Shown: in pieces, positions 1 to 19,710 of the stretch | Layout of the letters: each line of letters opens with the position of its first letter | How positions within the stretch are numbered: position 1 is the first letter of the stretch | Origin: a virus | Direction: 5' to 3' (one strand) | Virus record (IMG/VR): IMGVR_UViG_3300045988_016630 | Span: 1 to 19,710 of that record | Length of the DNA stretch: 19,710 nt | Notes under the pieces: model-generated | Databases searched by the model: none | Told to the model about the DNA's origin: nothing | Seen by the model: the letters and a program-made list of their open reading frames with translations, nothing else | Made by a program: the position numbers and the translations under genes

Positions 1-106
1 AGGGGTATGGATTTGTGTGAAGATTTTCCCTTGTGGTTTTTTTTATTTGTGTATTATTTTTTTGTGTTCTGTGTGGTCCTTGACGTTTTGTTTTGTTCAT
101 GCCTCT

Positions 107-135
107 ATTATATTTTTTTTACGCCTGCATGTCAA
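107..135 (-). promoter_or_regulatory. Consensus sigma70/sigmaA-type promoter in ITR-L, firing outward toward position 1
   Basis: The minus strand reads TTGACA (135..130), a 17-nt spacer, then TATAAT (112..107). An A-rich UP-like tract (aaaataaaaaaag) precedes it. Only about 100 nt remain to the genome end. Confidence 0.6.
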
Positions 136-212
136 CTTTTTTTATTTTCGGGCGTGTCGTTTTTTTATTGACGCTGTGTCAATGGTTGTATATGCAACAA
201 TCTGCGTCCGGC

Positions 213-276
213 TAAGTTACGGTTACGTAACCGTAGCTTACTTACCGTCCGGCCGGTAACTGTCTTTTATTTTTTT
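213..276. promoter_or_regulatory. ITR palindrome cluster: 28-bp near-perfect palindrome plus an adjacent hairpin with a T-run
   Basis: TACGGTTACGTAACCGTA (218-235) is a perfect 18-bp palindrome, extendable to 213-240 with one T:G mismatch. TTACCGtccggcCGGTAA (242-259) follows, then ctgtcttttattttttt (T-run to 276) on the inward-reading strand. Confidence 0.5.
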
Positions 277-314
277 GCCTTGTTTTGTTTTTGGGCGTGC
301 TGCCCGTTTGTTTG

Positions 315-323
315 TGTTATGGT
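315..323 (+). promoter_or_regulatory. Candidate inward extended -10 promoter in ITR-L (TGtTATGGT)
   Basis: TGtTATGGT lies about 35 nt upstream of the ATG at 358. It fits the TGnTAnnnT pattern seen at other intergenic sites in this genome. No -35 element was seen. The RBS gagggaaaggaaaaa follows. Confidence 0.3.
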
Positions 324-357
324 GTAGTTATCCGCTTCGAGGGAAAGGAAAAATAAA

Positions 358-558
358 ATGATTAACGATAGCATCATCAAGGATTACGTCGAGGATTACA
401 TCCTGAACAGCGATCAGCAGCTCGATGGCTTCGATATTGATGCGATTGTTGAGGATCTGCATCATGTGGCTTTGGTCAATGGTATGACCATTGAGGAATA
501 TGCCGATTGTGATTCGTTCCCGTCTGATGATTTTATTGAAGCGTTTGAGGAGGCGTGA
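358..558 (+). CDS. Small, highly acidic hypothetical protein (66 aa); DNA-mimic or anti-defence candidate
   Basis: ATG with an ITR-encoded purine-rich RBS (gagggaaaggaaaaataaaATG). Counted by eye: 19 Asp/Glu against 1 Lys. It is the only plus-strand gene and is followed by a strong terminator. Confidence 0.75.
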   Translation: MINDSIIKDYVEDYILNSDQQLDGFDIDAIVEDLHHVALVNGMTIEEYADCDSFPSDDFIEAFEEA

Positions 559-613: not shown

Positions 614-1291
614 TTAGGCGAATACGAGATACCACATTGACTTGTCTGCGGGTGCGAGTGCTACGTATCGGGTTTTGCCTGAATAGCCTATGTAGTGTGC
701 CCAAATGTATCCGTCTGCGATCACACCGCCTTCGGATAGGTTGACTGTCTGTCCGTAGTGGTATTGGGCTACGACTTGTGCTGAGGTTGACGGCGCCGAG
801 CGTACGTTGAGCACGTCTACGTTTACTTTGTAGGTTCCTGGAATGATTGTTGCGTTATTGTTTGCCGGTGCTGGCGCTGGGGCGCTTGTTGAGCGTGGGT
901 GAAAGTAGCCGATAATACCGTTCTTAGTGAGGGTCACGTATCCGGCTTTGTTTGGGTTCTGTGACATGGTTTCCAGGGTTCCGTTGCCGTTGTCTCGTAC
1001 TACGATGGCTACGTGGTTCATGCCGTTGCCGTTCCAGAAGGCCACGTCACCGTAAACCGGCGTGTAGTTGCCTGCTTCTCGGCTAAACGTGTTCTGTAGA
1101 GCGCGGGAGCGGTCGTATCGTGCAGTGTAGACGCTTGCGGCGTATCCGTCTACGGTGTTGGTGTCGGCGGCTGGGATGCCGTATACGTTGCGGGCGTAGT
1201 TGCTCCATAGGTCCCAGCATTGCCCGCCGTATGCGCCGTCCATGTCTACTACTTTGCCGTTAACGTTGTTCATCCATTCTTGAATGTTCAT
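614..1291 (-). CDS. Endolysin: N-terminal CHAP amidase/endopeptidase plus C-terminal SH3b-type cell-wall-binding domain
   Basis: CHAP Cys motif DGAYGGQCWDLW and His motif NHVAIVV. An APAPAPA linker precedes a C-terminal SH3-like segment (YKVNVDVLNVRSAPSTSAQVV...GYIWAHY). It sits directly after the holin (TAA-c-ATG) with RBS ggaaggaaaa. Confidence 0.9.
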   Translation of the reverse strand: MNIQEWMNNVNGKVVDMDGAYGGQCWDLWSNYARNVYGIPAADTNTVDGYAASVYTARYDRSRALQNTFSREAGNYTPVYGDVAFWNGNGMNHVAIVVRDNGNGTLETMSQNPNKAGYVTLTKNGIIGYFHPRSTSAPAPAPANNNATIIPGTYKVNVDVLNVRSAPSTSAQVVAQYHYGQTVNLSEGGVIADGYIWAHYIGYSGKTRYVALAPADKSMWYLVFA

Positions 1292-2876: not shown

Positions 2877-4088
2877 TTAGAACGCTGGCGGATTAGACTT
2901 GCCATCCCACACACTCAATAGCGAATATGCCTGATTATACCGTGTCGTATACGGGCCGAACGGGAACGTGCTCAGAATGTTGTTTTTGAGCTGTTCGAGG
3001 TTCGACGCCTTCGGCACCTTCAACGCGTTCGCCGGTGACTGGTGATATGCCGTCACCCAAAGAATCTGCATTTTCGTGTCGCTATACTCTTTGGGGTAGT
3101 CTGCGTAGTCTTCCGCGAACTGTTTGCGCTGTCCGTCACGCGACTCACTACGTGCCGCCCACGTTCTGAACGCGGCCGCCTCCACTGAGGTGAGGGAACG
3201 TTTGAACGTGCCGCCCGACTCCATGAGCGCGGCTATTTCAGGCGCGGCGGTTTTGAATGCCTCATATCCGGTTGGGTCGGCGGTTTTCATGGCGTTGAGC
3301 ACTTGCAGGCGGCGTTCGAAACTCCATTGCGCAATGCCGATACCTTGCAAATTGGCGGCTTCGACTGCATCCCAGCGCAAACCGGACTCAACCGTGCCGA
3401 CCACATAGAGCGCGTACGAGTTTTCCGTACTGACCGAGCTGGACGGGTGCCCCTGTCCTTGCGAGTCGGACGGCTGGGATTGTGACGCTTTTTCCGAAAA
3501 ATTATTGGCAGTAGTACGGTAAAAGATCCGTGTCCGCGTCCCGGCATTGTCGGTCTCGTGCAAGTAGAGGTTGTCGCCCTGCCAGTGTATCCACGCTCCC
3601 CCGCGTGACGTGTCGGGGTTGCCCTGGTTGTTGTTGCCGGTCGGATTGTCCACGTCCGGTTTCGGCATGGTACGGGGATGCAAGTAGCCTAATAGTCCGG
3701 TGGTGGGGAACCATTTCAACGCGCTGGCGTCGGGGTTTTGTGTGATAACGTAGATTTGCTCGTCTTTTACGCCATCTGCCGCGACTATCGCCACGTGCGT
3801 ATAGGGAGTATACGTGCTATATCCCCATATGGCCACGTCTCCCGCTACGGGCGAGTACCCATTGGCTGGAATGCGTTCGTACACTTGTTCGCACCGTGCT
3901 GACACGGGGTATGCGGTATATAAGCCGCCCGCATAACCGGTGGGGGTTATGCAATCCTGGATACTCATGCCGTACATATCCATGGAATATTTCGCCCATA
4001 GGTCCCAGCATTGCGCCCCGTATGCGCCGTCCATATCCCAGTAGCGGCCTTGCGTCTGCCTAATCCAATCTTCAAAAGTAATAGCCAT
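2877..4088 (-). CDS. Virion-associated peptidoglycan hydrolase (phi29 gp13 position): N-terminal CHAP domain plus C-terminal putative lysozyme/transglycosylase-like domain
   Basis: The CHAP motifs DGAYGAQCWDLW and THVAIVA are closely similar to those of the endolysin. The C-terminal half contains VESGLRWD...GIGIAQWS, which resembles an E-S...G-x-x-Q glycosidase motif (weak call). It lies between the tail fibre and the ATPase, as gp13 does in phi29. Confidence 0.8.
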   Translation of the reverse strand: MAITFEDWIRQTQGRYWDMDGAYGAQCWDLWAKYSMDMYGMSIQDCITPTGYAGGLYTAYPVSARCEQVYERIPANGYSPVAGDVAIWGYSTYTPYTHVAIVAADGVKDEQIYVITQNPDASALKWFPTTGLLGYLHPRTMPKPDVDNPTGNNNQGNPDTSRGGAWIHWQGDNLYLHETDNAGTRTRIFYRTTANNFSEKASQSQPSDSQGQGHPSSSVSTENSYALYVVGTVESGLRWDAVEAANLQGIGIAQWSFERRLQVLNAMKTADPTGYEAFKTAAPEIAALMESGGTFKRSLTSVEAAAFRTWAARSESRDGQRKQFAEDYADYPKEYSDTKMQILWVTAYHQSPANALKVPKASNLEQLKNNILSTFPFGPYTTRYNQAYSLLSVWDGKSNPPAF

Positions 4089-13199: not shown

Positions 13200-13208
13200 A
13201 TTATAGCA
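13200..13208 (-). promoter_or_regulatory. Extended -10 promoter TGcTATAAT overlapping the DNA polymerase stop codon
   Basis: The minus strand reads ggtcaTGcTATAATacttgtg. The TAA stop of the polymerase lies inside the hexamer. Confidence 0.45.
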
Positions 13209-14652
13209 TGACCATTGTTCCGTAATCATCCATGACTTGCGTTCCATGCCTAAACTTCTCGTAGGGGATGGGCTGGGAAAACATGTTTCCGGCCATACAT
13301 ACGTCAACCTCTCCGTCTTCCCTCCATCCCTGATACCGGTTCATACCCAGGATAGTCAGTTTTTCGTATCGTGCGGCGATTTTCCACTTGCCTAGTTCGG
13401 TCGGGTGTATGTCGCATGATTTCACCGGCTCCCAACCGCTCAAAATACAACCGTCCGTATTCGCGTACAATAGCCGATCGGCGTTCGCATGGCACACGTC
13501 CATAAGCTTGCGGCGTGCATAAGCGTTGACCCACACGGGCACTGGCAGATAGTCGGTTTTCAGATTCGATCCCTCGCGCTGGGCGACATCCCAGTCCAAT
13601 GTTATGCCGTCTTTGGAGAAGGGGAGCATGACAGAACCCTTGGGCAGACTCGCCATTTTGCCGACCAGGGCGTTCATGATCAGTTTCGCCATCTGCCGTT
13701 TCTCGCCCGTCGTCCGTTGTTTCAACTCCCCCCATTCATCGATGAACGAACGGAAGAAACCTTTGGAGCGTCGGAATTTCCATCCGCGTACATGCCTATA
13801 TATGCTCACGTCATAGTTTTCATAAAGCAATTGTTGGTCAATGTCGGTCAAGACGCGCGTGACATATCCACGGGTTGAGGTGAGACGGTTCAGTCCGTAT
13901 ATACTGCGATTATCAAGTAGAAATGGGTAGCCGTTTGGCTTGAGTTCCGCACGAAACGTGAGTTCATCGCAATGCAATGGCATGTCATCATCTTGACTGT
14001 ATGCGCCTTCGTACGGTTCCGGTTCGCCCCACGGCAACCACTCGTCCCGCAAAATGCTCGGATACATTGAGTTGCAGTCAACGTCAATAGCCTTGCCGTA
14101 TGCCCCCTCTCTTGCGACCATGAAACCGCCGATATAGGCGTCATGCAACGATTTTTTATCCTCCGGTTCGAGCTGTGGAAATTTGTCGTAAAACCACTTC
14201 CACTCGCCGGACGCGAACGCCTCCATACTCGCGCCACCCGCCGTTATCTTACACAAACCACGGTTATCGTATTCGCGCAGAATGTTGAGCAATTGCATGT
14301 CAGGCATGGAGAGACGGCAATTCTCACGCAACAGATTCGATATATCGAAAAAACGTGCCGAGTTCTCACGGTCGATACGTGCCGTGAAGCTGAAAAACTT
14401 CCCCTTTTTTGAGATGATGGCGTCCCAGCTCAAGTTAGAGTTGTGTTCGTTGTGGGGCAATGCGTGTACGACGTGCGCTATAAATGGGTCAAGCAGTTCG
14501 GGACTAGTCACGTAGACGGTGAGTTTGCCGCCCGTCATTATGTACGCCAAAAGACTCTTAGGCGCGGTGACGTCACGCAAGACGGTTCCGTCCGTAAAGC
14601 GTATGACGTTATCCGCGCACCACAATCCAACTCGATTGTCTTGCCTGGTCAT
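13201..14652 (-). CDS. Protein-primed family B DNA polymerase, phi29 gp2-like (483 aa)
   Basis: Motif A DVDCNSMYPS, motif B KLIMNALVGKMAS, motif C LYANTDGC, and a KxY-like LGMNRY. TPR1/TPR2-like regions are collinear with phi29 (LPWGEPEPYEG vs LPYGEPIVFEG; FIDEWGELK vs FIDKWTYIK). Start set to ATG 14652, because the upstream ORF extension overlaps the terminal-protein gene. Confidence 0.93.
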   Translation of the reverse strand: MTRQDNRVGLWCADNVIRFTDGTVLRDVTAPKSLLAYIMTGGKLTVYVTSPELLDPFIAHVVHALPHNEHNSNLSWDAIISKKGKFFSFTARIDRENSARFFDISNLLRENCRLSMPDMQLLNILREYDNRGLCKITAGGASMEAFASGEWKWFYDKFPQLEPEDKKSLHDAYIGGFMVAREGAYGKAIDVDCNSMYPSILRDEWLPWGEPEPYEGAYSQDDDMPLHCDELTFRAELKPNGYPFLLDNRSIYGLNRLTSTRGYVTRVLTDIDQQLLYENYDVSIYRHVRGWKFRRSKGFFRSFIDEWGELKQRTTGEKRQMAKLIMNALVGKMASLPKGSVMLPFSKDGITLDWDVAQREGSNLKTDYLPVPVWVNAYARRKLMDVCHANADRLLYANTDGCILSGWEPVKSCDIHPTELGKWKIAARYEKLTILGMNRYQGWREDGEVDVCMAGNMFSQPIPYEKFRHGTQVMDDYGTMVML

Positions 14653-14680: not shown

Positions 14681-15643
14681 CTACTTTTCCAGTGCGCCAG
14701 CTTCCGCCAACCACCTGTCAAACTGCTTGCGGGATCGCTGATAGCCCTCGCTGTTGTCACGGAACACTGAAGTAAACCCGTGCCGAACTGGGTCATATAC
14801 CGTCCAGTCGAACACGATTCTGGGTGCGTCCGTCTGCTCGATGACCGCACGTTTTTGTGCGGCTGAGAGTTGACGGAATCGTTTCAGCCGTTTCGAGCCG
14901 AGCGTGGTTGCCAAGATCTTCTCGAACACCTCATAACGCCCCCGACTCATATAGGACGGCCAATCATGATCACCATACAATTCTTTAGTCTGTTTGCTTG
15001 TCTTCCGGTTTTTGGACGGTTTGCTTTTTCGTTTGGTGCGCAACCCTAGTATTTCGGCGGCATCATGCATTTGCTCAAGCAGTTCGTTACGACGCCCGCT
15101 TTCCAGTTGGGAGCGCACGAACGCTTCGTCACTCAACACGTTGGTCATTTGCAGAAAATCAGTGAGCTTCGATGGAATGATCTGATTACGTCCGAAACCC
15201 TCACCGGTGGTTCCGGTGATTTCAGCAACGCGTTGGTCGTACACGCTTTTCGCGGGCACGGCCTGAGCCTTATTCCATTCATTGATCTTGCGCCGTGCCG
15301 CATTGATTTTCCGCTGCTGCTGACGCAAGAGTTTACGTCGCTTCGCCACCGGCTCCGCGTCAATCTGCGCGTTAGTGATGGGTGTGCGCTGTGCAAACAT
15401 GTAGTCTTTCTTCGTGGGCTTTTCCACGGCACTGGCATGGTAGGAGGTTGCTTTCGCTTCCGCTATGGCCTGCCTCTTCTGCCGTTCCCACTCTTTGCCT
15501 AAAGTTTTGGCGATGTTGACTAGTTGTTGGTCCGCGGTTTTGGCGAGATTCGAGCGGGAGTAAGCGCCAAGCTGTTTGATATTACGGGCGGCGCGTGCTT
15601 GCGCGGCCTGACGTGCCTTGACATGCTTTTGCTTCCGAGACAT
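14681..15643 (-). CDS. Candidate terminal protein (320 aa, basic), by position upstream of the polymerase
   Basis: Immediately upstream of the protein-primed polymerase, as phi29 gene 3 is. Lys/Arg-rich with a basic N-terminus (KQKHVKARQAAQARAARNIK). The covalent-priming lifestyle is implied by the ITRs and the pPolB. No residue-level homology could be verified. Confidence 0.6.
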   Translation of the reverse strand: MSRKQKHVKARQAAQARAARNIKQLGAYSRSNLAKTADQQLVNIAKTLGKEWERQKRQAIAEAKATSYHASAVEKPTKKDYMFAQRTPITNAQIDAEPVAKRRKLLRQQQRKINAARRKINEWNKAQAVPAKSVYDQRVAEITGTTGEGFGRNQIIPSKLTDFLQMTNVLSDEAFVRSQLESGRRNELLEQMHDAAEILGLRTKRKSKPSKNRKTSKQTKELYGDHDWPSYMSRGRYEVFEKILATTLGSKRLKRFRQLSAAQKRAVIEQTDAPRIVFDWTVYDPVRHGFTSVFRDNSEGYQRSRKQFDRWLAEAGALEK

Positions 15644-15725: not shown

Positions 15726-16160
15726 TCACTTGGTTTCCTCGTCCACCGGCTCGATGCTGAAAAACTTGAAGCCACGACGGGAACGACGTTCAACCACCTT
15801 GATGCACAGCGGTTCCGTCCACATGTTCGGCGTGCCGAAGATACCGAACATAGTGTTCAGTCCCGCCGCGAGAGTGGGGGAGGTGGCCGCGTACGCCTTA
15901 TTATCGTCGGTCACGATAATGACGCGCACGGTGTTGGAGATTTCGCCCGTCTGATCGTCGGTCACCTGCACGGCCTGGGCGACTGCGTTCGTCATGTTCA
16001 GCGGCTCGTTGAGGTGTTCGTCAAGCTTTTCGGCGTTCTGCAATGCCGAGTAGAGCTTAATCTTGCCTTCGCGAGTGCTTGTGTCGATGAAGTGTTGGAC
16101 GGTGCCGAGTTCGGTGTTCTCGGTGTTGAACGCGACGAGTGCGGTATTAGTGTTTTCCAT
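15726..16160 (-). CDS. Single-stranded DNA-binding protein, phi29 gp5-like
   Basis: It starts MENTN like remembered phi29 p5. GKIKLYSA vs GQIKIFNA, AVAQAVQVTDDQTGE vs AIAQYKQVSDTYGD, and C-terminal KVVERRSRRGFKFFSIEP vs KVVQGTSSKGNVFFSLQ. Syntenic position. RBS aggaaagg. Confidence 0.7.
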   Translation of the reverse strand: MENTNTALVAFNTENTELGTVQHFIDTSTREGKIKLYSALQNAEKLDEHLNEPLNMTNAVAQAVQVTDDQTGEISNTVRVIIVTDDNKAYAATSPTLAAGLNTMFGIFGTPNMWTEPLCIKVVERRSRRGFKFFSIEPVDEETK

Positions 16161-16219: not shown

Positions 16220-16228
16220 TTTATATCA
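16220..16228 (-). promoter_or_regulatory. Candidate extended -10 element TGaTATAAA upstream of the SSB gene
   Basis: The minus strand reads gtgTGaTATAAAaag. It overlaps the stop codon of the upstream gene, in an AT-rich intergenic region about 60 nt before the ATG at 16160. Confidence 0.35.
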
Positions 16229-16543
16229 CACGTCTTCGTTATTTTCAACGTCGGCGTGTCTATTTTTTGTGTGCTCTTCTGGATTCCATTCTTGAGGTTC
16301 CTCAAAGGTAGCATATTTGTAGAACGTTTCCTCATTCATTGAGACTTTTTGCGAAAAAATGTTGATGGAACGCGGAATAAAATTCGGAAACAATCTCTTC
16401 GCACGGATTGAATATGCGCGAGCGTCCTTAAGGCGTCCGTCGATAACGTGCTCCGCTCCCATGAAGTCGCCGTCCACCAATTCCATGCCTTTCAGCACGG
16501 CATAGACGCGCGTGCGGAAAATTTCGGTTTTGGTTCTAGCCAA
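16226..16543 (-). CDS. Hypothetical early protein (105 aa), possible phi29 p6-like dsDNA-binding protein
   Basis: TTG start with a strong RBS (GGGAGGtaagaaTTG). It sits directly upstream of the SSB, as phi29 gene 6 does, and has similar size and an acidic C-terminal tail. The resemblance is loose (IFRTRVYAVLKGMELVDGDF vs ITKTTVNVAKMVMVDGEV). Confidence 0.55.
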   Translation of the reverse strand: MARTKTEIFRTRVYAVLKGMELVDGDFMGAEHVIDGRLKDARAYSIRAKRLFPNFIPRSINIFSQKVSMNEETFYKYATFEEPQEWNPEEHTKNRHADVENNEDV

Positions 16544-16546
16544 TTC

Positions 16547-17065
16547 TTACCTCCCTTGCAGTAAGATTTTTTGCAATTCTACGTCATTATATCGTGTCGT
16601 GTCCAGTCTGTCAAAATTTTTAAACACGGCGATAATGAGATTTTCCGCTTGAGGACTATCAAAAACCGTGCAACAGTCATACGACGTAGCACCCTTGACC
16701 GCGCAGACCGCGCACCAGGCAATCAAATTAGGCGGATTGATGGAACCGTCCAAATATTCCACGTCATACGTGCGAGACATTGCGGCGGCGAGCCCGTCCC
16801 CCATACTCAGACCGCCCGCAATCTGAGACACAGTAATCACCGCTTGCGTAAACCACTCACTAGGTGCTTCACGCCACAACTCGCACAACATATTGACGGC
16901 ACGGCAACACGACTCATAGTCACCATATCCAACGTCATACCGTTTCAGATTCAGCTCACGAGTATGTCCACGCGTGGCCTTGACAATACGAGGAGACTCC
17001 ATGATCGCATCGTCAAAGTCACGCATACGGTAAATAGGCCGCCTATCATCACCACGCCTAAACAT
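16547..17065 (-). CDS. Hypothetical early protein (172 aa)
   Basis: ATG 17065 with RBS GAGGAGcgatattATG. Long ORF in the operon frame. No motif recognised. Confidence 0.75.
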   Translation of the reverse strand: MFRRGDDRRPIYRMRDFDDAIMESPRIVKATRGHTRELNLKRYDVGYGDYESCCRAVNMLCELWREAPSEWFTQAVITVSQIAGGLSMGDGLAAAMSRTYDVEYLDGSINPPNLIAWCAVCAVKGATSYDCCTVFDSPQAENLIIAVFKNFDRLDTTRYNDVELQKILLQGR

Positions 17066-17234
17066 AATATCGCTCCTCAACGTGAAAATAACTGATATTC
17101 TCCGTATGAGACCGGATAGCCGCCCACCGTTTAATCAAATCCGCCGCATCCTTGTATGAGGACGCGTAACCGATCTCGATAGGCGGCTTGCGCGCATCCC
17201 TCAAGTATGCGATAGCCACGAAAGTACTATACAT
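17058..17234 (-). CDS. Small hypothetical protein (58 aa), absent from the supplied ORF track
   Basis: Hand translation gives MYSTFVAIAYLRDARKPPIEIGYASSYKDAADLIKRWAAIRSHTENISYFHVEERYYV. The ATG lies 2 nt after the upstream stop, with RBS tGGAGttttaggcATG. It exactly fills the otherwise empty 17081-17236 gap and overlaps the next start by 8 nt. Confidence 0.5.
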   Translation of the reverse strand: MYSTFVAIAYLRDARKPPIEIGYASSYKDAADLIKRWAAIRSHTENISYFHVEERYYV

Positions 17235-17236
17235 GC

Positions 17237-17440
17237 CTAAAACTCCAATCCATCAACAGGATCACTATCCCCATACAGCCACATGACCTCCCACAACCGC
17301 CGATCAGGGCAACGTTTCGGAGGATTAGTGGCGCTCCGCTTATGCTGTCTCCCAGCCCAAAACGCGCGCAAACGCCAATAACTATCAGCGTCCGGGCACG
17401 TGCCGCACAGCCACGAATGTATCCAACCACGAAAATACAT
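17237..17440 (-). CDS. Small Trp/Cys-rich hypothetical protein (67 aa)
   Basis: ATG 17440 lies one base after the upstream stop (TGA-t-ATG), with RBS ggatagggat. The longer 82-aa version would overlap the upstream gene. Confidence 0.55.
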   Translation of the reverse strand: MYFRGWIHSWLCGTCPDADSYWRLRAFWAGRQHKRSATNPPKRCPDRRLWEVMWLYGDSDPVDGLEF

Positions 17441-17441
17441 A

Positions 17442-17690
17442 TCAATCCCTATCCAGTAGTGGGGTATTGGCAATATCGATAGCATCCAGCATCAAATCAA
17501 CCACCTGAGATCCATCCCCAGCATCATACGCACACAAGGCCGACCCGCCACATACACCTCCGCACGGTGTACAAAACTGGACAGCATACCTCAGTTCATA
17601 CCGTTGACCGTGAGGACAATACCACAGGCGCACACCACCGCCCACAAACGGCGACGCAAACACGGCAACATTCATATCATTCCTACACAT
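17442..17690 (-). CDS. Small Cys-rich hypothetical protein (82 aa), zinc-ribbon-like
   Basis: YCPHG...FCTPCGGVCGG suggests a CxxH/CxxC metal site. The ATG lies one base after the upstream stop (TGA-a-ATG). Confidence 0.6.
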   Translation of the reverse strand: MCRNDMNVAVFASPFVGGGVRLWYCPHGQRYELRYAVQFCTPCGGVCGGSALCAYDAGDGSQVVDLMLDAIDIANTPLLDRD

Positions 17691-17691
17691 T

Positions 17692-17862
17692 TCAAAACCT
17701 TTTCACTACAAAACCCAATACGATAGCCACGCACACAATCAGCATGACCAGAAAACACATTGCGTCACGCATATCACGCGGAGCTTCAGAAAACGCTTCA
17801 GCACCCGCAGCAATCAGCATGATCGCAAACAAGCCAACAACTATAGCCATATCAATCATCAT
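17692..17862 (-). CDS. Small membrane protein (two predicted transmembrane helices); start uncertain
   Basis: MMIDMAIVVGLFAIMLIAAGA...AMCFLVMLIVCVAIVLGFVV. ATGs at 17862, 17859 and 17850 flank the upstream stop (17852-17854). The 78-aa TTG version (17928) would overlap the upstream gene by 77 nt. Confidence 0.5.
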   Translation of the reverse strand: MMIDMAIVVGLFAIMLIAAGAEAFSEAPRDMRDAMCFLVMLIVCVAIVLGFVVKRF

Positions 17863-18106
17863 AACACCACGGTCCACTGTTAAAAGCCCGACTAAGCTCT
17901 TGAAAATCAATGCCATGACAATAAGCAATTCCGTCGTCTACGTCGATAAAATCCATAAAAGGCACCCAACGGCCACGGTCTAGATCAAATATTGCAAAAC
18001 GGTAGTCCACACCGCAGTAGTCACATGGATGCTCACACCGCCGAAAACGACGATCTAACCCCGTGAACGTGTCAACAACAGTAAAATAATGCCATTCCAT
18101 GTTCAT
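17852..18106 (-). CDS. Hypothetical early protein (84 aa), Cys/His-containing
   Basis: ATGA overlap with the methyltransferase stop. RBS aaggaagcaaaATG. Contains CEHPCDYCG and YCHG. Confidence 0.7.
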   Translation of the reverse strand: MNMEWHYFTVVDTFTGLDRRFRRCEHPCDYCGVDYRFAIFDLDRGRWVPFMDFIDVDDGIAYCHGIDFQELSRAFNSGPWCYDD

Positions 18107-19021
18107 TTTGCTTCCTTTGATATGTTTTCAAGTCTTCTACCTAGCCAACGCATAACCGGCACGGCCATGGAATTACCTAACACGCCGATTCGCTCACGGT
18201 ACCTTAGACAGTCAGTCCATCCAGGCGGGAAACCCTGGAGCGCTTCGCACTCTTCAGCAGTAAGACGCCTGAAAGGATACCCGCCACCCCAAACGTAGGG
18301 CGGGTCATTGCGATTATGGCGAAGCAATGTCGGGCAAGCGTCGCTCATTGTTGGCGCAGAAGACTGTGTGTCTATGCGACATTGGACTTTATTGCTTCCT
18401 GACAAACGTCTCTCAAGCCTGCTGGCTCGGAGAGCTTCGGCCTTTTGTCCAGCCTTGCAAGTATCCCCCTGCAAGCTTGCACTGTCATAAAGCACGTCGA
18501 CGGCACGTCTCCAATCGTGAGTATTGATGACAAGGTAGATTCTTTTACGTCGTTGGGGTACTCCGAAGTATTGAGCGTCAAGCACTCGCCATGCCCCCCC
18601 CACCCCCGCGAGCACCCCAGAGTTTTGAAACGGAATTAAGCAATGTTGCAAAGTCTCTGCCACCATTGGAAGAGAGTACACCTGGAACGTTCTCCCAGAT
18701 AATCCACTCCGGGTCAATTTCTGCGCAAGCTCGGAGATATTCGAGCATGAGCTGGCCGCGCAGATCATTAAGCCCTTTTCGTGCGCCTGCGATTGAAAAT
18801 GCTTGGCATGGGCTTCCTCCGACCACAATGTTAGCTGTTCCATGGTATTTACTCCAATCTACTTTGGTGACGTCTCCCAGATTGGGAATGTCCGGAAAGT
18901 TTTTTGCTAGGACTTTTGAGGGTGTTTTATCAAATTCGCAGAATGCTATAGGCTCCCAGCCTAATGGCTTCCACGCGACGCTCGCGGCTTCGATACCGCT
19001 AAAAAGGCTTATGTATTTCAT
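18103..19021 (-). pseudogene. C5-cytosine DNA methyltransferase (Dcm-type), split by a frameshift in a G8 homopolymer
   Basis: The N-terminal ORF (19021..18578) carries motif I LFSGIEA, motif IV GGSPCQAFSIAG and motif VI ENVPG. The C-terminal ORF frame (from about 18595 to 18103) carries motif VIII DAQYFGVPQRRKRIYLV and motifs IX/X RRLTAEECEALQGFPPGW and GNSMAVPV. The frames differ by +1. Removing one G from GGGGGGGG (C8 at 18594-18601) gives a continuous ...WGARGGGGAWRVLDAQYFGVPQRR... of about 305 aa. Confidence 0.85.
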
Positions 19022-19122
19022 ATTACCTTTCAGAAGTTTGATGTGATTGAGTCCAGGTTAAAGGATGTAGTCTTCTTGGATTGAACCGTGTGTGTCTGGT
19101 AGTCACCGTATTTAACCTCCAA

Positions 19123-19353
19123 TCAAACAAGCGAAACTTTGACCATGCCAACCATTGTGCCGTCAAGATCAAACGTGGCATTATCAATATCCACACTCAC
19201 ATTACGCCCAACATAAGCGCTACGAACATGAGACAACACGCCATCTAACGACGCTTTCAACGACACTGTATGAAACATGCCACTAGGCTTCACGCAATCG
19301 GGCAGAATCTCGAATACCTGAAAACCGTTTTCGGTGATATTAAAATACCACAT
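19123..19353 (-). CDS. Hypothetical early protein (76 aa), first gene of the right-end operon
   Basis: The ATG and RBS are supplied by ITR-R, identical to those of 358..558. No motif recognised. Confidence 0.7.
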   Translation of the reverse strand: MWYFNITENGFQVFEILPDCVKPSGMFHTVSLKASLDGVLSHVRSAYVGRNVSVDIDNATFDLDGTMVGMVKVSLV

Positions 19354-19387
19354 TTTATTTTTCCTTTCCCTCGAAGCGGATAACTAC

Positions 19388-19396
19388 ACCATAACA
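19388..19396 (-). promoter_or_regulatory. Candidate inward extended -10 promoter in ITR-R, likely start of the early operon
   Basis: Mirror copy of 315..323. It lies upstream of the shared RBS and the ATG at 19353. Confidence 0.3.
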
Positions 19397-19434
19397 CAAA
19401 CAAACGGGCAGCACGCCCAAAAACAAAACAAGGC

Positions 19435-19498
19435 AAAAAAATAAAAGACAGTTACCGGCCGGACGGTAAGTAAGCTACGGTTACGTAACCGTAACTTA
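19435..19498. promoter_or_regulatory. Mirror copy of the ITR palindrome cluster in ITR-R
   Basis: Reverse complement of 213..276, as a consequence of the perfect ITR. Confidence 0.5.
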
Positions 19499-19575
19499 GC
19501 CGGACGCAGATTGTTGCATATACAACCATTGACACAGCGTCAATAAAAAAACGACACGCCCGAAAATAAAAAAAG

Positions 19576-19604
19576 TTGACATGCAGGCGTAAAAAAAATA
19601 TAAT
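19576..19604 (+). promoter_or_regulatory. Consensus sigma70/sigmaA-type promoter in ITR-R, firing outward toward position 19710
   Basis: TTGACA (19576-19581), spacer tgcaggcgtaaaaaaaa (17 nt), TATAAT (19599-19604). The upstream A tract is cgaaaataaaaaaag. TATAAT-agaggc-ATG puts an ATG (19611) at the expected transcription start. Confidence 0.6.
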
Positions 19605-19710
19605 AGAGGCATGAACAAAACAAAACGTCAAGGACCACACAGAACACAAAAAAATAATACACAAATAAAAAAAACCACAAGGGAAAATCTTCACACAAAT
19701 CCATACCCCT

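What the first reader, a model, noticed from the sequence alone, without database searches (positions are those of the whole stretch)
13201..14652. Protein-primed DNA polymerase with an apparently degenerate 3'-5' exonuclease domain and a non-canonical motif C
The polymerase is 483 aa against 575 aa for phi29, and the shortfall is mainly N-terminal. Aligned by eye to phi29:
- Exo I (C-D-F-E-T-T) corresponds to W-C-A-D-N-V, so no DxE pair is present.
- Exo II (H-N-L-K-F-D) corresponds to T-S-P-E-L-L-D. The Asp is kept and the Asn is lost.
- About 30 residues carrying the Exo III Tyr (YxxxD) are missing, leaving only P-D-M-Q-L-L against N-D-I-Q-I-I.
- Motif C reads Y-A-N-T-D-G instead of Y-x-D-T-D-S. 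This was verified from the DNA: TAC GCG AAT ACG GAC GGT.

Motifs A and B and the TPR regions look normal. If real, this would be a replicative pPolB lacking proofreading, with consequences for mutation rate and the sliding-back mechanism.
Basis: inference. Interest (0 to 1): 0.65.

Follow-up and report, generated by a model that had tools for sequence, protein, structure and literature searches.

The report
Phage DNA polymerase without proofreading site
The only DNA polymerase of this small Bifidobacterium phage, and of a whole related group of gut phages, keeps just a shrunken, apparently dead remnant of the error-correcting (proofreading) domain that all other studied polymerases of this protein-primed type carry, so these phages probably copy their DNA without proofreading.

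Summary
The gene lies on the minus strand at 13201-14652 and encodes 483 aa. It is the only polymerase in a complete 19.7-kb phi29-like Bifidobacterium podophage genome with 360-bp inverted terminal repeats.

The polymerase half is a bona fide protein-primed family B polymerase (PF03175; phi29 pol E=1e-42; TPR1 and TPR2 present; catalytic Asp192 and Asp400 invariant).

The first ~128 aa are a homologous but shrunken remnant of the exonuclease domain:
- hhalign gives 95.7% probability, and the domain model matches only phi29 pol (TM 0.52-0.62).
- There is no DxE.
- Ser50 and Leu54 sit at the Exo II Asn and Asp positions.
- A 34-residue deletion removes the Kx2h Lys and the Exo III Tyr.
- Pro117 sits at Asp169.

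This is not a one-off. A monophyletic clade of ~465-495-aa polymerases shares the truncation (100/100 bootstrap on the polymerase domain alone). It includes the cultured phages BP1, BD811P1-3 and BadAztec. No conserved acidic residue is left in the domain, yet the domain is under purifying selection.

Motif C Asp to Asn is confirmed.

This is a new variant of a known kind. Loss of activity is inferred, not measured.

The parts
13201..14652 (-). Protein-primed family B DNA polymerase gene, 483 aa plus stop
   Evidence: ORF list and translation. PF03175 scores 94 bits against a cut-off of 25.8. phi29 pol 1xhx E=1e-42. The full-length AF2 model has pLDDT 91.5 and matches phi29 pol with TM 0.83-0.85.
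14269..14652 (-). Vestigial exonuclease-like N-terminal domain (aa 1-128)
   Evidence: There is no Pfam or phmmer match. hhalign against the canonical exo-domain profile gives 95.7% probability, E=9e-9. The domain-only model has pLDDT 89, and its only hits at E of about 1e-3 or better are phi29 pol chains, TM 0.52-0.62. dN/dS is 0.07-0.24.
14605..14628 (-). Exo I remnant G-L-W-C-A-D14-N-V. One Asp is present and there is no DxE.
   Evidence: MAFFT places D14 under phi29 D12 and V16 under E14. Global hhalign instead drops the Exo I strand altogether. In other short-clade members D14 falls in a D-G turn or is absent.
14479..14520 (-). Exo II remnant T-V-Y47-V-T49-S50-P-E-L-L54-D55-P-F57-I
   Evidence: hhalign maps Y47=Y59, T49=H61, S50=N62, L54=D66, D55=G67 and F57=F69. 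D55 varies (D/N/T) in close relatives. Y47 and F57 are invariant.
14284..14316 (-). Deletion junction and Exo III remnant R-L-S-M | P117-D118-M-Q-L-L-N
   Evidence: A 34-column gap corresponds to phi29 K135-N168, which holds K143 and Y165. P117 aligns with D169. The same gap appears in MAFFT alignments.
14059..14085 (-). Motif A D-V-D192-C-N-S-M-Y197-P (catalytic Asp and steric-gate Tyr kept)
   Evidence: D192, N194 and Y197 are conserved in all groups.
13657..13686 (-). Non-canonical motif B K323-L-I-M-N-A-L-V330-G-K, where the canonical form is Kx3NSxYG
   Evidence: The Tyr is replaced by V/I/T/A in 40/40 short-clade sequences. It is Tyr in 23/26 canonical ones.
13450..13467 (-). Non-canonical motif C Y-A-N398-T-D400-G
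   Evidence: The DNA was verified. Asn occurs in 35/40 short-clade sequences, against Asp in 26/26 canonical ones. Gly replaces Ser in 36/40. D400 is invariant.
13333..13341 (-). KxY motif reading N-R-Y (Lys lost)
   Evidence: Lys is 26/26 in canonical sequences and 0/40 at this column in the short clade.
13510..13527 (-). Tx2GR motif reading N-A-Y-A-R-R
   Evidence: Thr is 26/26 in canonical sequences. It is Asn in 31/40 short-clade sequences. The Arg is invariant.
13756..14043 (-). TPR1 insertion (about aa 204-299)
   Evidence: It aligns continuously to phi29 residues ~261-358 in phmmer.
13573..13641 (-). TPR2 insertion (about aa 338-360)
   Evidence: It aligns to phi29 398-420. The model shows a beta-hairpin at E340-345 and E353-358.
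14681..15643 (-). Candidate terminal protein (320 aa), immediately upstream of the polymerase gene
   Evidence: The position matches phi29 gene 3. A 300-330-aa ORF lies between the SSB and pol genes in every relative examined. There is no family hit, so the assignment is by synteny only.
15726..16160 (-). phi29-type single-stranded DNA-binding protein
   Evidence: phrog_6243 E=2.7e-19. PF17427 is found in the orthologues.
1..360 (.). Left inverted terminal repeat
   Evidence: It is an exact 360-bp reverse complement of the right end.
19351..19710 (.). Right inverted terminal repeat

Best explanation
The gene encodes the replicative, terminal-protein-primed family B DNA polymerase of a phi29-like Bifidobacterium podophage.

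Its N-terminal ~128 residues descend from the 3'-5' exonuclease domain. They have lost the two-metal DEDDy active site and about a third of their length, including the segment that carries the Kx2h Lys and the Exo III Tyr. The enzyme therefore most likely polymerises without intrinsic proofreading.

The remnant is probably kept as a structural module (inferred). With TPR2, palm and fingers it would close the downstream-template tunnel needed for strand displacement. It would also keep the Tyr59 and Phe69-equivalent residues that phi29 uses to bind the terminal protein.

The loss happened once, in the ancestor of a deep clade of ~465-495-aa polymerases. It is accompanied by changes at primer-terminus and nascent-base-pair residues of the polymerase site:
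- motif B Tyr to Val/Ile
- motif C first Asp to Asn
- KxY Lys lost
- Tx2GR Thr to Asn

These changes are consistent with relaxed or altered constraints once no pol-exo primer shuttling is needed.

Shown: homology, the truncation, absence of conserved carboxylates, clade-wide distribution and purifying selection. Inferred: absence of exonuclease activity, the scaffold role and lower fidelity.
For: - Identity as a pPolB: PF03175 at 94 bits. phi29 pol E=1e-42 over aa 129-439, including TPR1 and TPR2. Full-length model pLDDT 91.5, TM 0.83-0.85 to phi29 pol.
- Genome context: complete genome with an exact 360-bp ITR. SSB, TP-sized ORF and pol are in phi29 order. No other polymerase or exonuclease gene was found by Pfam or PHROGs.
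- The N-terminal domain is homologous to the exo domain: hhalign 95.7%, E=9e-9. The domain-only model matches only phi29 pol at E of about 1e-3 or better, TM 0.52-0.62.
- Catalytic positions: S50=N62, L54=D66, P117=D169, and K143 and Y165 are deleted. There is no DxE.
- Canonical pPolBs keep N62, D66, K143, Y165 and D169 in 26/26. The short clade has no N-terminal column with at least 85% D/E, and only Asn106 is invariant.
- The clade is monophyletic on the polymerase domain alone, 100/100 NJ bootstrap.
- It includes plaque-forming phages BP1, BD811P1-3 and BadAztec/BadAargau, so the enzyme supports viable replication.
- dN/dS of the N-terminal domain is 0.07-0.24.
- Y47 and F57, equivalent to phi29 Tyr59 and Phe69 (TP-binding; Eisenbrandt 2002, cited in PMC1635332), are invariant in the close family.
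- The phi29 active-site residues and the tunnel role of the exo domain are described in PMC4974454.
Against: - No biochemical data exist.
Equivalences therefore rest on profile alignment.
- Asp14, Asp55 and Asp118 each lie at or one residue from a canonical carboxylate position. Asp14 and Asp118 are invariant within the close family, so a residual or remodelled metal site in this particular family is not strictly excluded.
- dS is saturated in most pairs, so the dN/dS values are rough.
- The canonical comparison set is only 26-27 sequences.
- The scaffold and TP-binding role is by analogy with phi29.
Confidence: 0.8

Rival explanations
1. The N-terminal domain is still a working 3'-5' exonuclease. 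It would use a remodelled site, for example Asp14, Asp55 or Asp118 plus other family-specific residues such as the His60/His63/His67/Glu69/His70 cluster.
For: D14, E69, D77, D94, D103 and D118 are invariant in the 20-sequence close family. D14 aligns with phi29 D12 in MAFFT. D55 and D118 are one residue away from D66 and D169 in the profile alignment. The domain is under purifying selection.
Against: None of these residues is conserved across the monophyletic short clade, and D55 varies even among close relatives. The segment carrying the catalytic Tyr and auxiliary Lys is deleted. In phi29 each of the four carboxylates is part of the two-metal site (PMC4974454). No Pfam nuclease family matches the domain.
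Confidence: 0.07
2. Proofreading is not lost but outsourced. A separate phage protein of unknown function, or a host DnaQ-like exonuclease, would edit the primer terminus in trans.
For: About ten small early ORFs (16226-19694, minus strand) have no recognisable function. One of them is 177 aa (16547-17080), about the size of a DnaQ-like domain, and it is conserved in BP1 and BD811P1. Trans-acting proofreading subunits exist in bacterial replicases (established knowledge).
Against: No Pfam or PHROG exonuclease signal appears in any window ORF, even at permissive thresholds. The Pfam families recorded for relatives' genomes show none either. A closed TPR2 and thumb ring around the DNA, as in phi29, would hinder access of an external nuclease (inference).
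Confidence: 0.1
3. Artefact: a wrong start codon, a frameshift, an assembly error or a decaying pseudogene makes an ordinary polymerase look truncated.
For: An in-frame GTG at 14850 would give 549 aa, close to canonical length. The same contig carries an apparently frameshifted methyltransferase.
Against: The 66-aa extension overlaps the upstream ORF, has no exo motifs and is interrupted by stops in BP1, MT836241, L007, L008, L009 and BadAztec1. More than 120 independent 90%-identity clusters have the same 482-484-aa protein. GenBank isolates annotate 483 aa. dN/dS is far below 1. The model is confident through the N-terminus.
Confidence: 0.02

Closest known systems
Bacillus phage phi29 DNA polymerase (gene 2 product; PDB 1XHX, 2PYJ, 2EX3), prototype protein-primed PolB
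   Same: It shares the polymerase-domain fold and order of motifs, the TPR1 and TPR2 insertions, and the catalytic Asp pair (D249/D458 = D192/D400). The gene sits next to a TP-sized gene and an SSB gene in a ~19-kb linear genome with ITRs. TM is 0.83-0.85.
   Different: The exonuclease domain is shorter by 52 residues (128 aa, where the equivalent phi29 segment is 180 aa). D12/E14, N62, D66, K143, Y165 and D169 have no conserved counterparts. Motif B Tyr390 is Val, motif C Asp456 is Asn and Ser459 is Gly, KxY Lys498 is Asn, and Tx2GR Thr434 is Asn. The C-terminal palm and thumb are ~32 aa shorter. The ITR is 360 bp rather than 6 bp.
Family B polymerases with naturally inactivated exonuclease domains (eukaryotic Pol alpha and Pol zeta; inactivated modules discussed in PMC2669801 and PMC7544198)
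   Same: The exonuclease-fold domain is retained as a structural module after loss of the catalytic residues.
   Different: Those enzymes are RNA/DNA-primed, multi-subunit cellular polymerases. They are either backed by other proofreading polymerases or specialised for translesion synthesis. Here the sole replicase of a virus is affected, and it is protein-primed.
Family A polymerases with vestigial 3'-5' exonuclease domains (Taq and Bst DNA polymerase I large fragments)
   Same: A shrunken, carboxylate-less exonuclease-like domain persists between or beside active domains. This comparison rests on established knowledge and was not tested here.
   Different: They belong to a different polymerase family and fold lineage. 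They are repair or lagging-strand enzymes, not a viral replicase.
Engineered exonuclease-deficient phi29 polymerases (e.g. D12A/D66A, N62D)
   Same: The predicted phenotype is the same: a processive protein-primed PolB without proofreading.
   Different: Those carry laboratory point mutations in a full-size domain. The natural enzyme has a deletion plus co-evolved polymerase-site substitutions.
PolB_SITDG group (Kazlauskas et al. 2020, PMC7544198)
   Same: The first Asp of motif C is replaced in a natural PolB lineage.
   Different: That group is not protein-primed, occurs in cyanobacteria and algae, and has a hydrophobic replacement rather than Asn.

Membership tests
Protein-primed family B DNA polymerase (Pfam PF03175 DNA_pol_B_2; phi29-type pPolB) | Significant match to the family profile | tested here: met
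   94.4 bits against a gathering cut-off of 25.8, aa 136-383. phi29 pol E=1e-42.
Protein-primed family B DNA polymerase (Pfam PF03175 DNA_pol_B_2; phi29-type pPolB) | Catalytic carboxylates of motif A (Dx2SLYP) and motif C (second Asp of DTD) | tested here: met
   D192 and D400 are invariant in all 66 aligned sequences.
Protein-primed family B DNA polymerase (Pfam PF03175 DNA_pol_B_2; phi29-type pPolB) | TPR1 and TPR2 insertions specific to protein-primed PolBs | tested here: met
   Both regions align continuously with phi29 261-358 and 398-420. The model shows the TPR2 hairpin, and overall TM to phi29 pol is 0.83-0.85.
Protein-primed family B DNA polymerase (Pfam PF03175 DNA_pol_B_2; phi29-type pPolB) | Linear genome with inverted terminal repeats and a terminal-protein gene | tested here: inconclusive
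   An exact 360-bp ITR is present. The 320-aa ORF upstream of pol is TP-like by position only and has no family hit. Covalent linkage cannot be tested in silico.
Protein-primed family B DNA polymerase (Pfam PF03175 DNA_pol_B_2; phi29-type pPolB) | Canonical motif B (Kx3NSxYG), motif C (YxDTDS), KxY and Tx2GR | tested here: not met
   The motifs read KLIMNALVG, YANTDG, NRY and NAYAR. All four deviations are clade-wide.
DEDDy (DnaQ-like) 3'-5' proofreading exonuclease domain of PolBs | Exo I DxE carboxylate pair | tested here: not met
   Only D14 is present, in C-A-D-N-V. It is not conserved in the wider clade.
DEDDy (DnaQ-like) 3'-5' proofreading exonuclease domain of PolBs | Exo II Nx2-3(F/Y)D | tested here: not met
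   S50 sits at the Asn position and L54 at the Asp position. The neighbouring D55 is variable.
DEDDy (DnaQ-like) 3'-5' proofreading exonuclease domain of PolBs | Exo III Yx3D and the auxiliary Kx2h Lys | tested here: not met
   A 34-residue deletion removes both the Tyr and the Lys. P117 sits at the Asp position.
DEDDy (DnaQ-like) 3'-5' proofreading exonuclease domain of PolBs | RNase H-like alpha/beta fold homologous to the exo domain | tested here: met
   hhalign 95.7%, E=9e-9. The domain-only model matches phi29 pol chains only, E=3e-4 to 1.5e-3, TM 0.52-0.62. The similarity is moderate, which fits a truncated remnant.
DEDDy (DnaQ-like) 3'-5' proofreading exonuclease domain of PolBs | 3'-5' exonuclease activity | not testable with these tools
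   This requires a biochemical assay on recombinant protein.

The most novel reading that the evidence does not exclude
An ancient, diversified clade of tailed dsDNA phages (phi29-like podophages of human-gut and bee-gut Bifidobacterium and uncultured relatives) may replicate entirely without proofreading. They would use a protein-primed polymerase whose dead exonuclease domain serves only as a strand-displacement and TP-binding scaffold, and whose nucleotide-binding pocket has been rebuilt (no motif B Tyr, no KxY Lys, Asn in motif C). Two outcomes are possible. These would be dsDNA viruses running at mutation rates one to two orders of magnitude above Drake's constant. Alternatively, the rebuilt polymerase site would achieve high fidelity by base selection alone.
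Probability: 0.5. Interest if true: 0.72.

Novelty: new variant of a known kind. Interest (0 to 1): 0.6.

Why it matters
Protein-primed PolBs are treated as proofreading enzymes by default. Surveys of tens of thousands of Polinton pPolBs report intact Exo I-III (bioRxiv 10.1101/2023.08.22.554363), and all biochemically studied phage enzymes (phi29, Nf, GA-1, Cp-1, PRD1) have the activity (PMC1635332).

A natural, viable, long-lived lineage without the active site would do three things:
1. It gives a test case for how much fidelity a ~19-kb dsDNA virus needs.
2. It separates the structural roles of the exonuclease domain (strand displacement, TP binding) from its catalytic role. In phi29 these are hard to disentangle by point mutation.
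3. It offers a naturally exonuclease-free, presumably strand-displacing polymerase scaffold. This matters for applications such as single-molecule sequencing and modified-nucleotide incorporation, which currently rely on engineered exo-minus phi29 mutants.

Cultured members (BP1, BD811P1-3, BadAztec) make it directly testable.

I found no paper describing this in six full-text literature searches that bear on it. That is absence of evidence within the held library only.

Tried and rejected
- Plus-strand reading of the given coordinates: full of stops. The gene is on the minus strand.
- Longer 549-aa ORF from GTG 14850: rejected.
- Direct sequence matching of the N-terminus to exonuclease families (Pfam, phmmer against PDB): nothing. 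Only profile-profile and fold comparison detect the relationship.
- Search for a separate exonuclease among the other window ORFs (PHROGs, Pfam): nothing.
- Residue-level structural superposition on phi29: not possible. Model coordinates are not exposed and fold search gives only summary scores.
- Comparing genome termini of relatives to judge sliding-back. BP1 and BD811P1 records have no terminal repeat at their deposited ends, and the metagenomic contig L007 starts elsewhere, so this was uninformative.
- First NJ bootstrap script timed out. It was redone with numpy.
- Literature searches for prior descriptions of exonuclease-less pPolBs or of the Bifidobacterium phage polymerases. Only general genome reports and reviews turned up, and none mentions the exonuclease domain.
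Full report
**What is at the coordinates.** The interval 13201-14652 is an open reading frame on the minus strand (the plus strand is full of stops). It encodes 483 aa from an ATG at 14652, preceded by AAGGA nine bases upstream. It starts 29 nt after the stop of a 320-aa upstream ORF. An in-frame GTG at 14850 would give 549 aa. That extension overlaps the upstream gene, has no recognisable motif and is interrupted by stop codons in six relatives. All 120 listed database homologues are 464-484 aa, nearly all 482-484, and GenBank annotates 483 aa in phage BD811P1.

**Context.** The window is a complete linear genome of 19,710 bp with an exact 360-bp inverted terminal repeat. It is 80.6% identical at the DNA level to Bifidobacterium phage BP1 and about 76% to the B. 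dentium phages BD811P1 and P3. Gene order is that of phi29-like podophages: SSB (phrog_6243), a TP-sized ORF, polymerase, scaffold-sized ORF, phi29-type major capsid protein, tail, connector, packaging ATPase, holin and lysins. It contains no second polymerase and no recognisable nuclease.

**The polymerase half is orthodox in architecture.**
- Pfam PF03175 scores 94 bits against a cut-off of 25.8.
- phmmer against PDB finds only phi29 DNA polymerase, E=1e-42. The alignment is continuous from aa 129-439 to phi29 181-499 and so includes TPR1 and TPR2.
- An AlphaFold2 model built on a 66-sequence alignment has mean pLDDT 91.5 and pTM 0.89. It matches the phi29 polymerase structures with TM 0.83-0.85, E about 1e-41.
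- The two catalytic carboxylates named for phi29 (Asp249 and Asp458; PMC4974454) correspond to Asp192 and Asp400, which are invariant.

**The N-terminal domain.** Neither Pfam nor phmmer sees anything in aa 1-128.
- A profile of this region from 40 short polymerases, compared by hhalign with a profile of 26 canonical exonuclease domains headed by phi29, gives 95.7% probability, E=9e-9. Part of that score comes from the linker after the domain.
- A separate AF2 model of aa 1-135 (pLDDT 89) finds only phi29 polymerase chains at E of about 1e-3 or better in the PDB, with TM 0.52-0.62 at 9-10% identity.

So the domain descends from the exonuclease domain and keeps its core fold. It is 52 residues shorter than the equivalent phi29 segment.

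**The profile alignment maps the catalytic positions as follows.**
- Exo II: Tyr47=Tyr59, Thr49=His61, Ser50=Asn62, Leu54=Asp66, Asp55=Gly67, Phe57=Phe69.
- A 34-column gap corresponds to phi29 Lys135-Asn168. It removes Lys143 (Kx2h) and Tyr165.
- Pro117 aligns with Asp169 and Asp118 with Ile170.
- For Exo I, MAFFT aligns Asp14 with Asp12 and Val16 with Glu14. Global hhalign instead aligns the first strand of the window protein with phi29 strand 2, which would mean the Exo I strand is missing.

Either way there is no DxE.

**Comparison with canonical pPolBs.** In 26 canonical pPolBs, N62, D66, K143, Y165 and D169 are each 26/26, and E14 is 24/24 where the N-terminus is present. Actinomyces phage Av-1 and Eggerthella phage LE1-1, which are phi29-like phages of other Actinobacteria, also keep canonical Exo I-III.

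**It is a clade, not an accident.**
- An exhaustive search of 1.84 billion representatives returned a set of ~454-496-aa polymerases, 26-41% identical to the query, as its best hits below the query's own family. Their alignment runs into the N-terminal domain. Canonical 550-600-aa enzymes align only from about aa 125 onwards.
- In alignments of these short enzymes the N-terminal domain has a single invariant residue (Asn106). No column reaches 85% Asp/Glu.
- Asp55 is Asn or Thr even in 4 of 19 close relatives. Asp14 and Asp118 are invariant only in the close family.
- A neighbour-joining tree on the polymerase domain alone (341 columns, N-terminus excluded) separates the 41 short from the 27 long enzymes in 100/100 bootstraps. 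This argues for one ancestral loss. The canonical sample is small.
- Members sit in 16-20-kb phi29-like genomes with the same SSB, TP-sized ORF and pol order. They include the cultured phages BP1, BD811P1-3 and the bee-gut B. asteroides phages BadAztec and BadAargau. The enzyme therefore sustains productive infection.
- Nei-Gojobori dN/dS for the N-terminal 128 codons is 0.07-0.24, against 0.04-0.13 for the rest. dS is often saturated. The remnant is under purifying selection.

**Polymerase-site peculiarities.** The non-canonical motif C is confirmed and is clade-wide. The first Asp is Asn in 35/40 short enzymes and Asp in 26/26 canonical ones, and Ser is replaced by Gly in 36/40. Since Asp249 and Asp458 are the catalytic pair in phi29, Asp to Asn does not remove a catalytic ligand. 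Another PolB lineage with a substituted first Asp is known (PolB_SITDG; PMC7544198).

- Kx3NSxYG reads KLIMNALVG. The Tyr equivalent to phi29 Tyr390, which forms the nascent-base-pair pocket with Tyr254 (PMC4974454), is V/I/T/A in 40/40 short enzymes and Tyr in 23/26 canonical ones.
- The KxY Lys is absent (0/40, against 26/26).
- The Tx2GR Thr is Asn in 31/40.

These positions contact the primer terminus or the incoming nucleotide. Their joint change with the loss of the exonuclease site suggests co-evolution (inference).

**Mechanistic reading.**
- Shown: this is a protein-primed-type PolB with an intact polymerase catalytic core and a truncated, carboxylate-poor but selected exonuclease-fold domain.
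- Inferred: the enzyme has no intrinsic proofreading. In phi29 the exonuclease domain, TPR2, palm and fingers encircle the downstream template and force strand separation (PMC4974454). The remnant is probably kept for this reason.
- Inferred: Exo II residues Tyr59 and Phe69 are essential for terminal-protein binding (Eisenbrandt et al. 2002, cited in PMC1635332). Their equivalents Tyr47 and Phe57 are invariant in the close family.
- With insertion discrimination of 1e4-1e6 reported for phi29, a 19.7-kb genome copied without editing would accumulate roughly 0.02-2 errors per replication. That is well above Drake's ~0.003 per genome. This is an inference and was not tested.
- The suggested link to sliding-back is not supported. 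In phi29 the exonuclease cannot act on the TP-dNMP initiation product, and sliding-back itself provides the check at the ends.

**Rivals.**
- A remodelled active exonuclease (Asp14, Asp118, or the His-rich loop) cannot be excluded for the close family without biochemistry. It is disfavoured by lack of conservation across the clade and by the deletion of Tyr and Lys.
- Trans-proofreading by an unassigned early protein or a host nuclease remains possible, but no nuclease signature was found.
- An annotation or assembly artefact is effectively excluded.

**Novelty.** Inactivated exonuclease domains are known in other PolBs (Pol alpha and zeta; PMC2669801, PMC7544198) and, from established knowledge, in family A enzymes such as Taq. 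For protein-primed PolBs the literature I could search treats Exo I-III as universally conserved. Genome reports and a 2024 review that cover these Bifidobacterium phages do not mention the polymerase's exonuclease domain. I therefore rate it a new variant of a known kind. It is experimentally tractable because cultured phages exist.

Noticed in passing
window 18103-19021 (minus strand): A C5-cytosine DNA methyltransferase is split into two overlapping ORFs. ORF 18578-19021 holds the N-terminal half (phrog_116 E=6e-50). ORF 18103-18843 shows homology only from about aa 79. The frame change lies near a Gly-rich, G-run stretch at about 18580-18620. This could be a frameshifted pseudogene, a homopolymer sequencing error or a slippery site. 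BP1 has no methyltransferase at this position.
   Followed up: partly
window 1-360 and 19351-19710: The exact 360-bp ITR is far longer than the 6 bp of phi29. The termini read 5'-AGGGGTATGG, so nucleotide 1 (A) is not reiterated as a sliding-back mechanism would require, although GGGG follows (compare PRD1, 3'-CCCC). Either the assembled ends are off by a base or initiation differs. Relatives' deposited ends were not comparable.
   Followed up: partly
window 14443-14475 (minus strand; aa 60-70 of the polymerase): A His-rich segment A-H60-V-V-H63-A-L-P-H67-N-E69-H70 lies at the end of the second helix of the vestigial domain. It is almost invariant in the close family but not in the wider clade. 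It could be a metal-binding or interaction site.
   Followed up: no
window 14681-15643 (minus strand): The 320-aa candidate terminal protein has no hit in Pfam or PHROGs. It is conserved in size and position (300-330 aa between SSB and pol) in all relatives examined.
   Followed up: partly
window 614-1291 and 2877-4088 (minus strand): Two proteins share very similar N-terminal regions (M..W......G...DMDGAYG.QCWDLW...), which look like lysin catalytic domains. BP1 annotates both orthologues as endolysins. One lies next to the holin and the other next to the tail genes, so the second is probably a tail-associated lysin.
   Followed up: no
window 16547-17080 (minus strand): A 177-aa early protein of unknown function is conserved in BP1 (gp18) and BD811P1. 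It has no family hit. Its size is compatible with a small nuclease or a DNA-binding protein, and it is worth a structure prediction to exclude a trans-acting proofreader.
   Followed up: partly
L001 (BP1) 13200-14651 and L004 (BD811P2) 201-1652: The GenBank annotations of the BP1 polymerase (start at 14615, 471 aa) and the BD811P2 polymerase (446 aa) begin downstream of the conserved start. The full 483-codon frame is open in both, with GTG in BD811P2. The deposited proteins are therefore probably N-terminally truncated annotations.
   Followed up: partly
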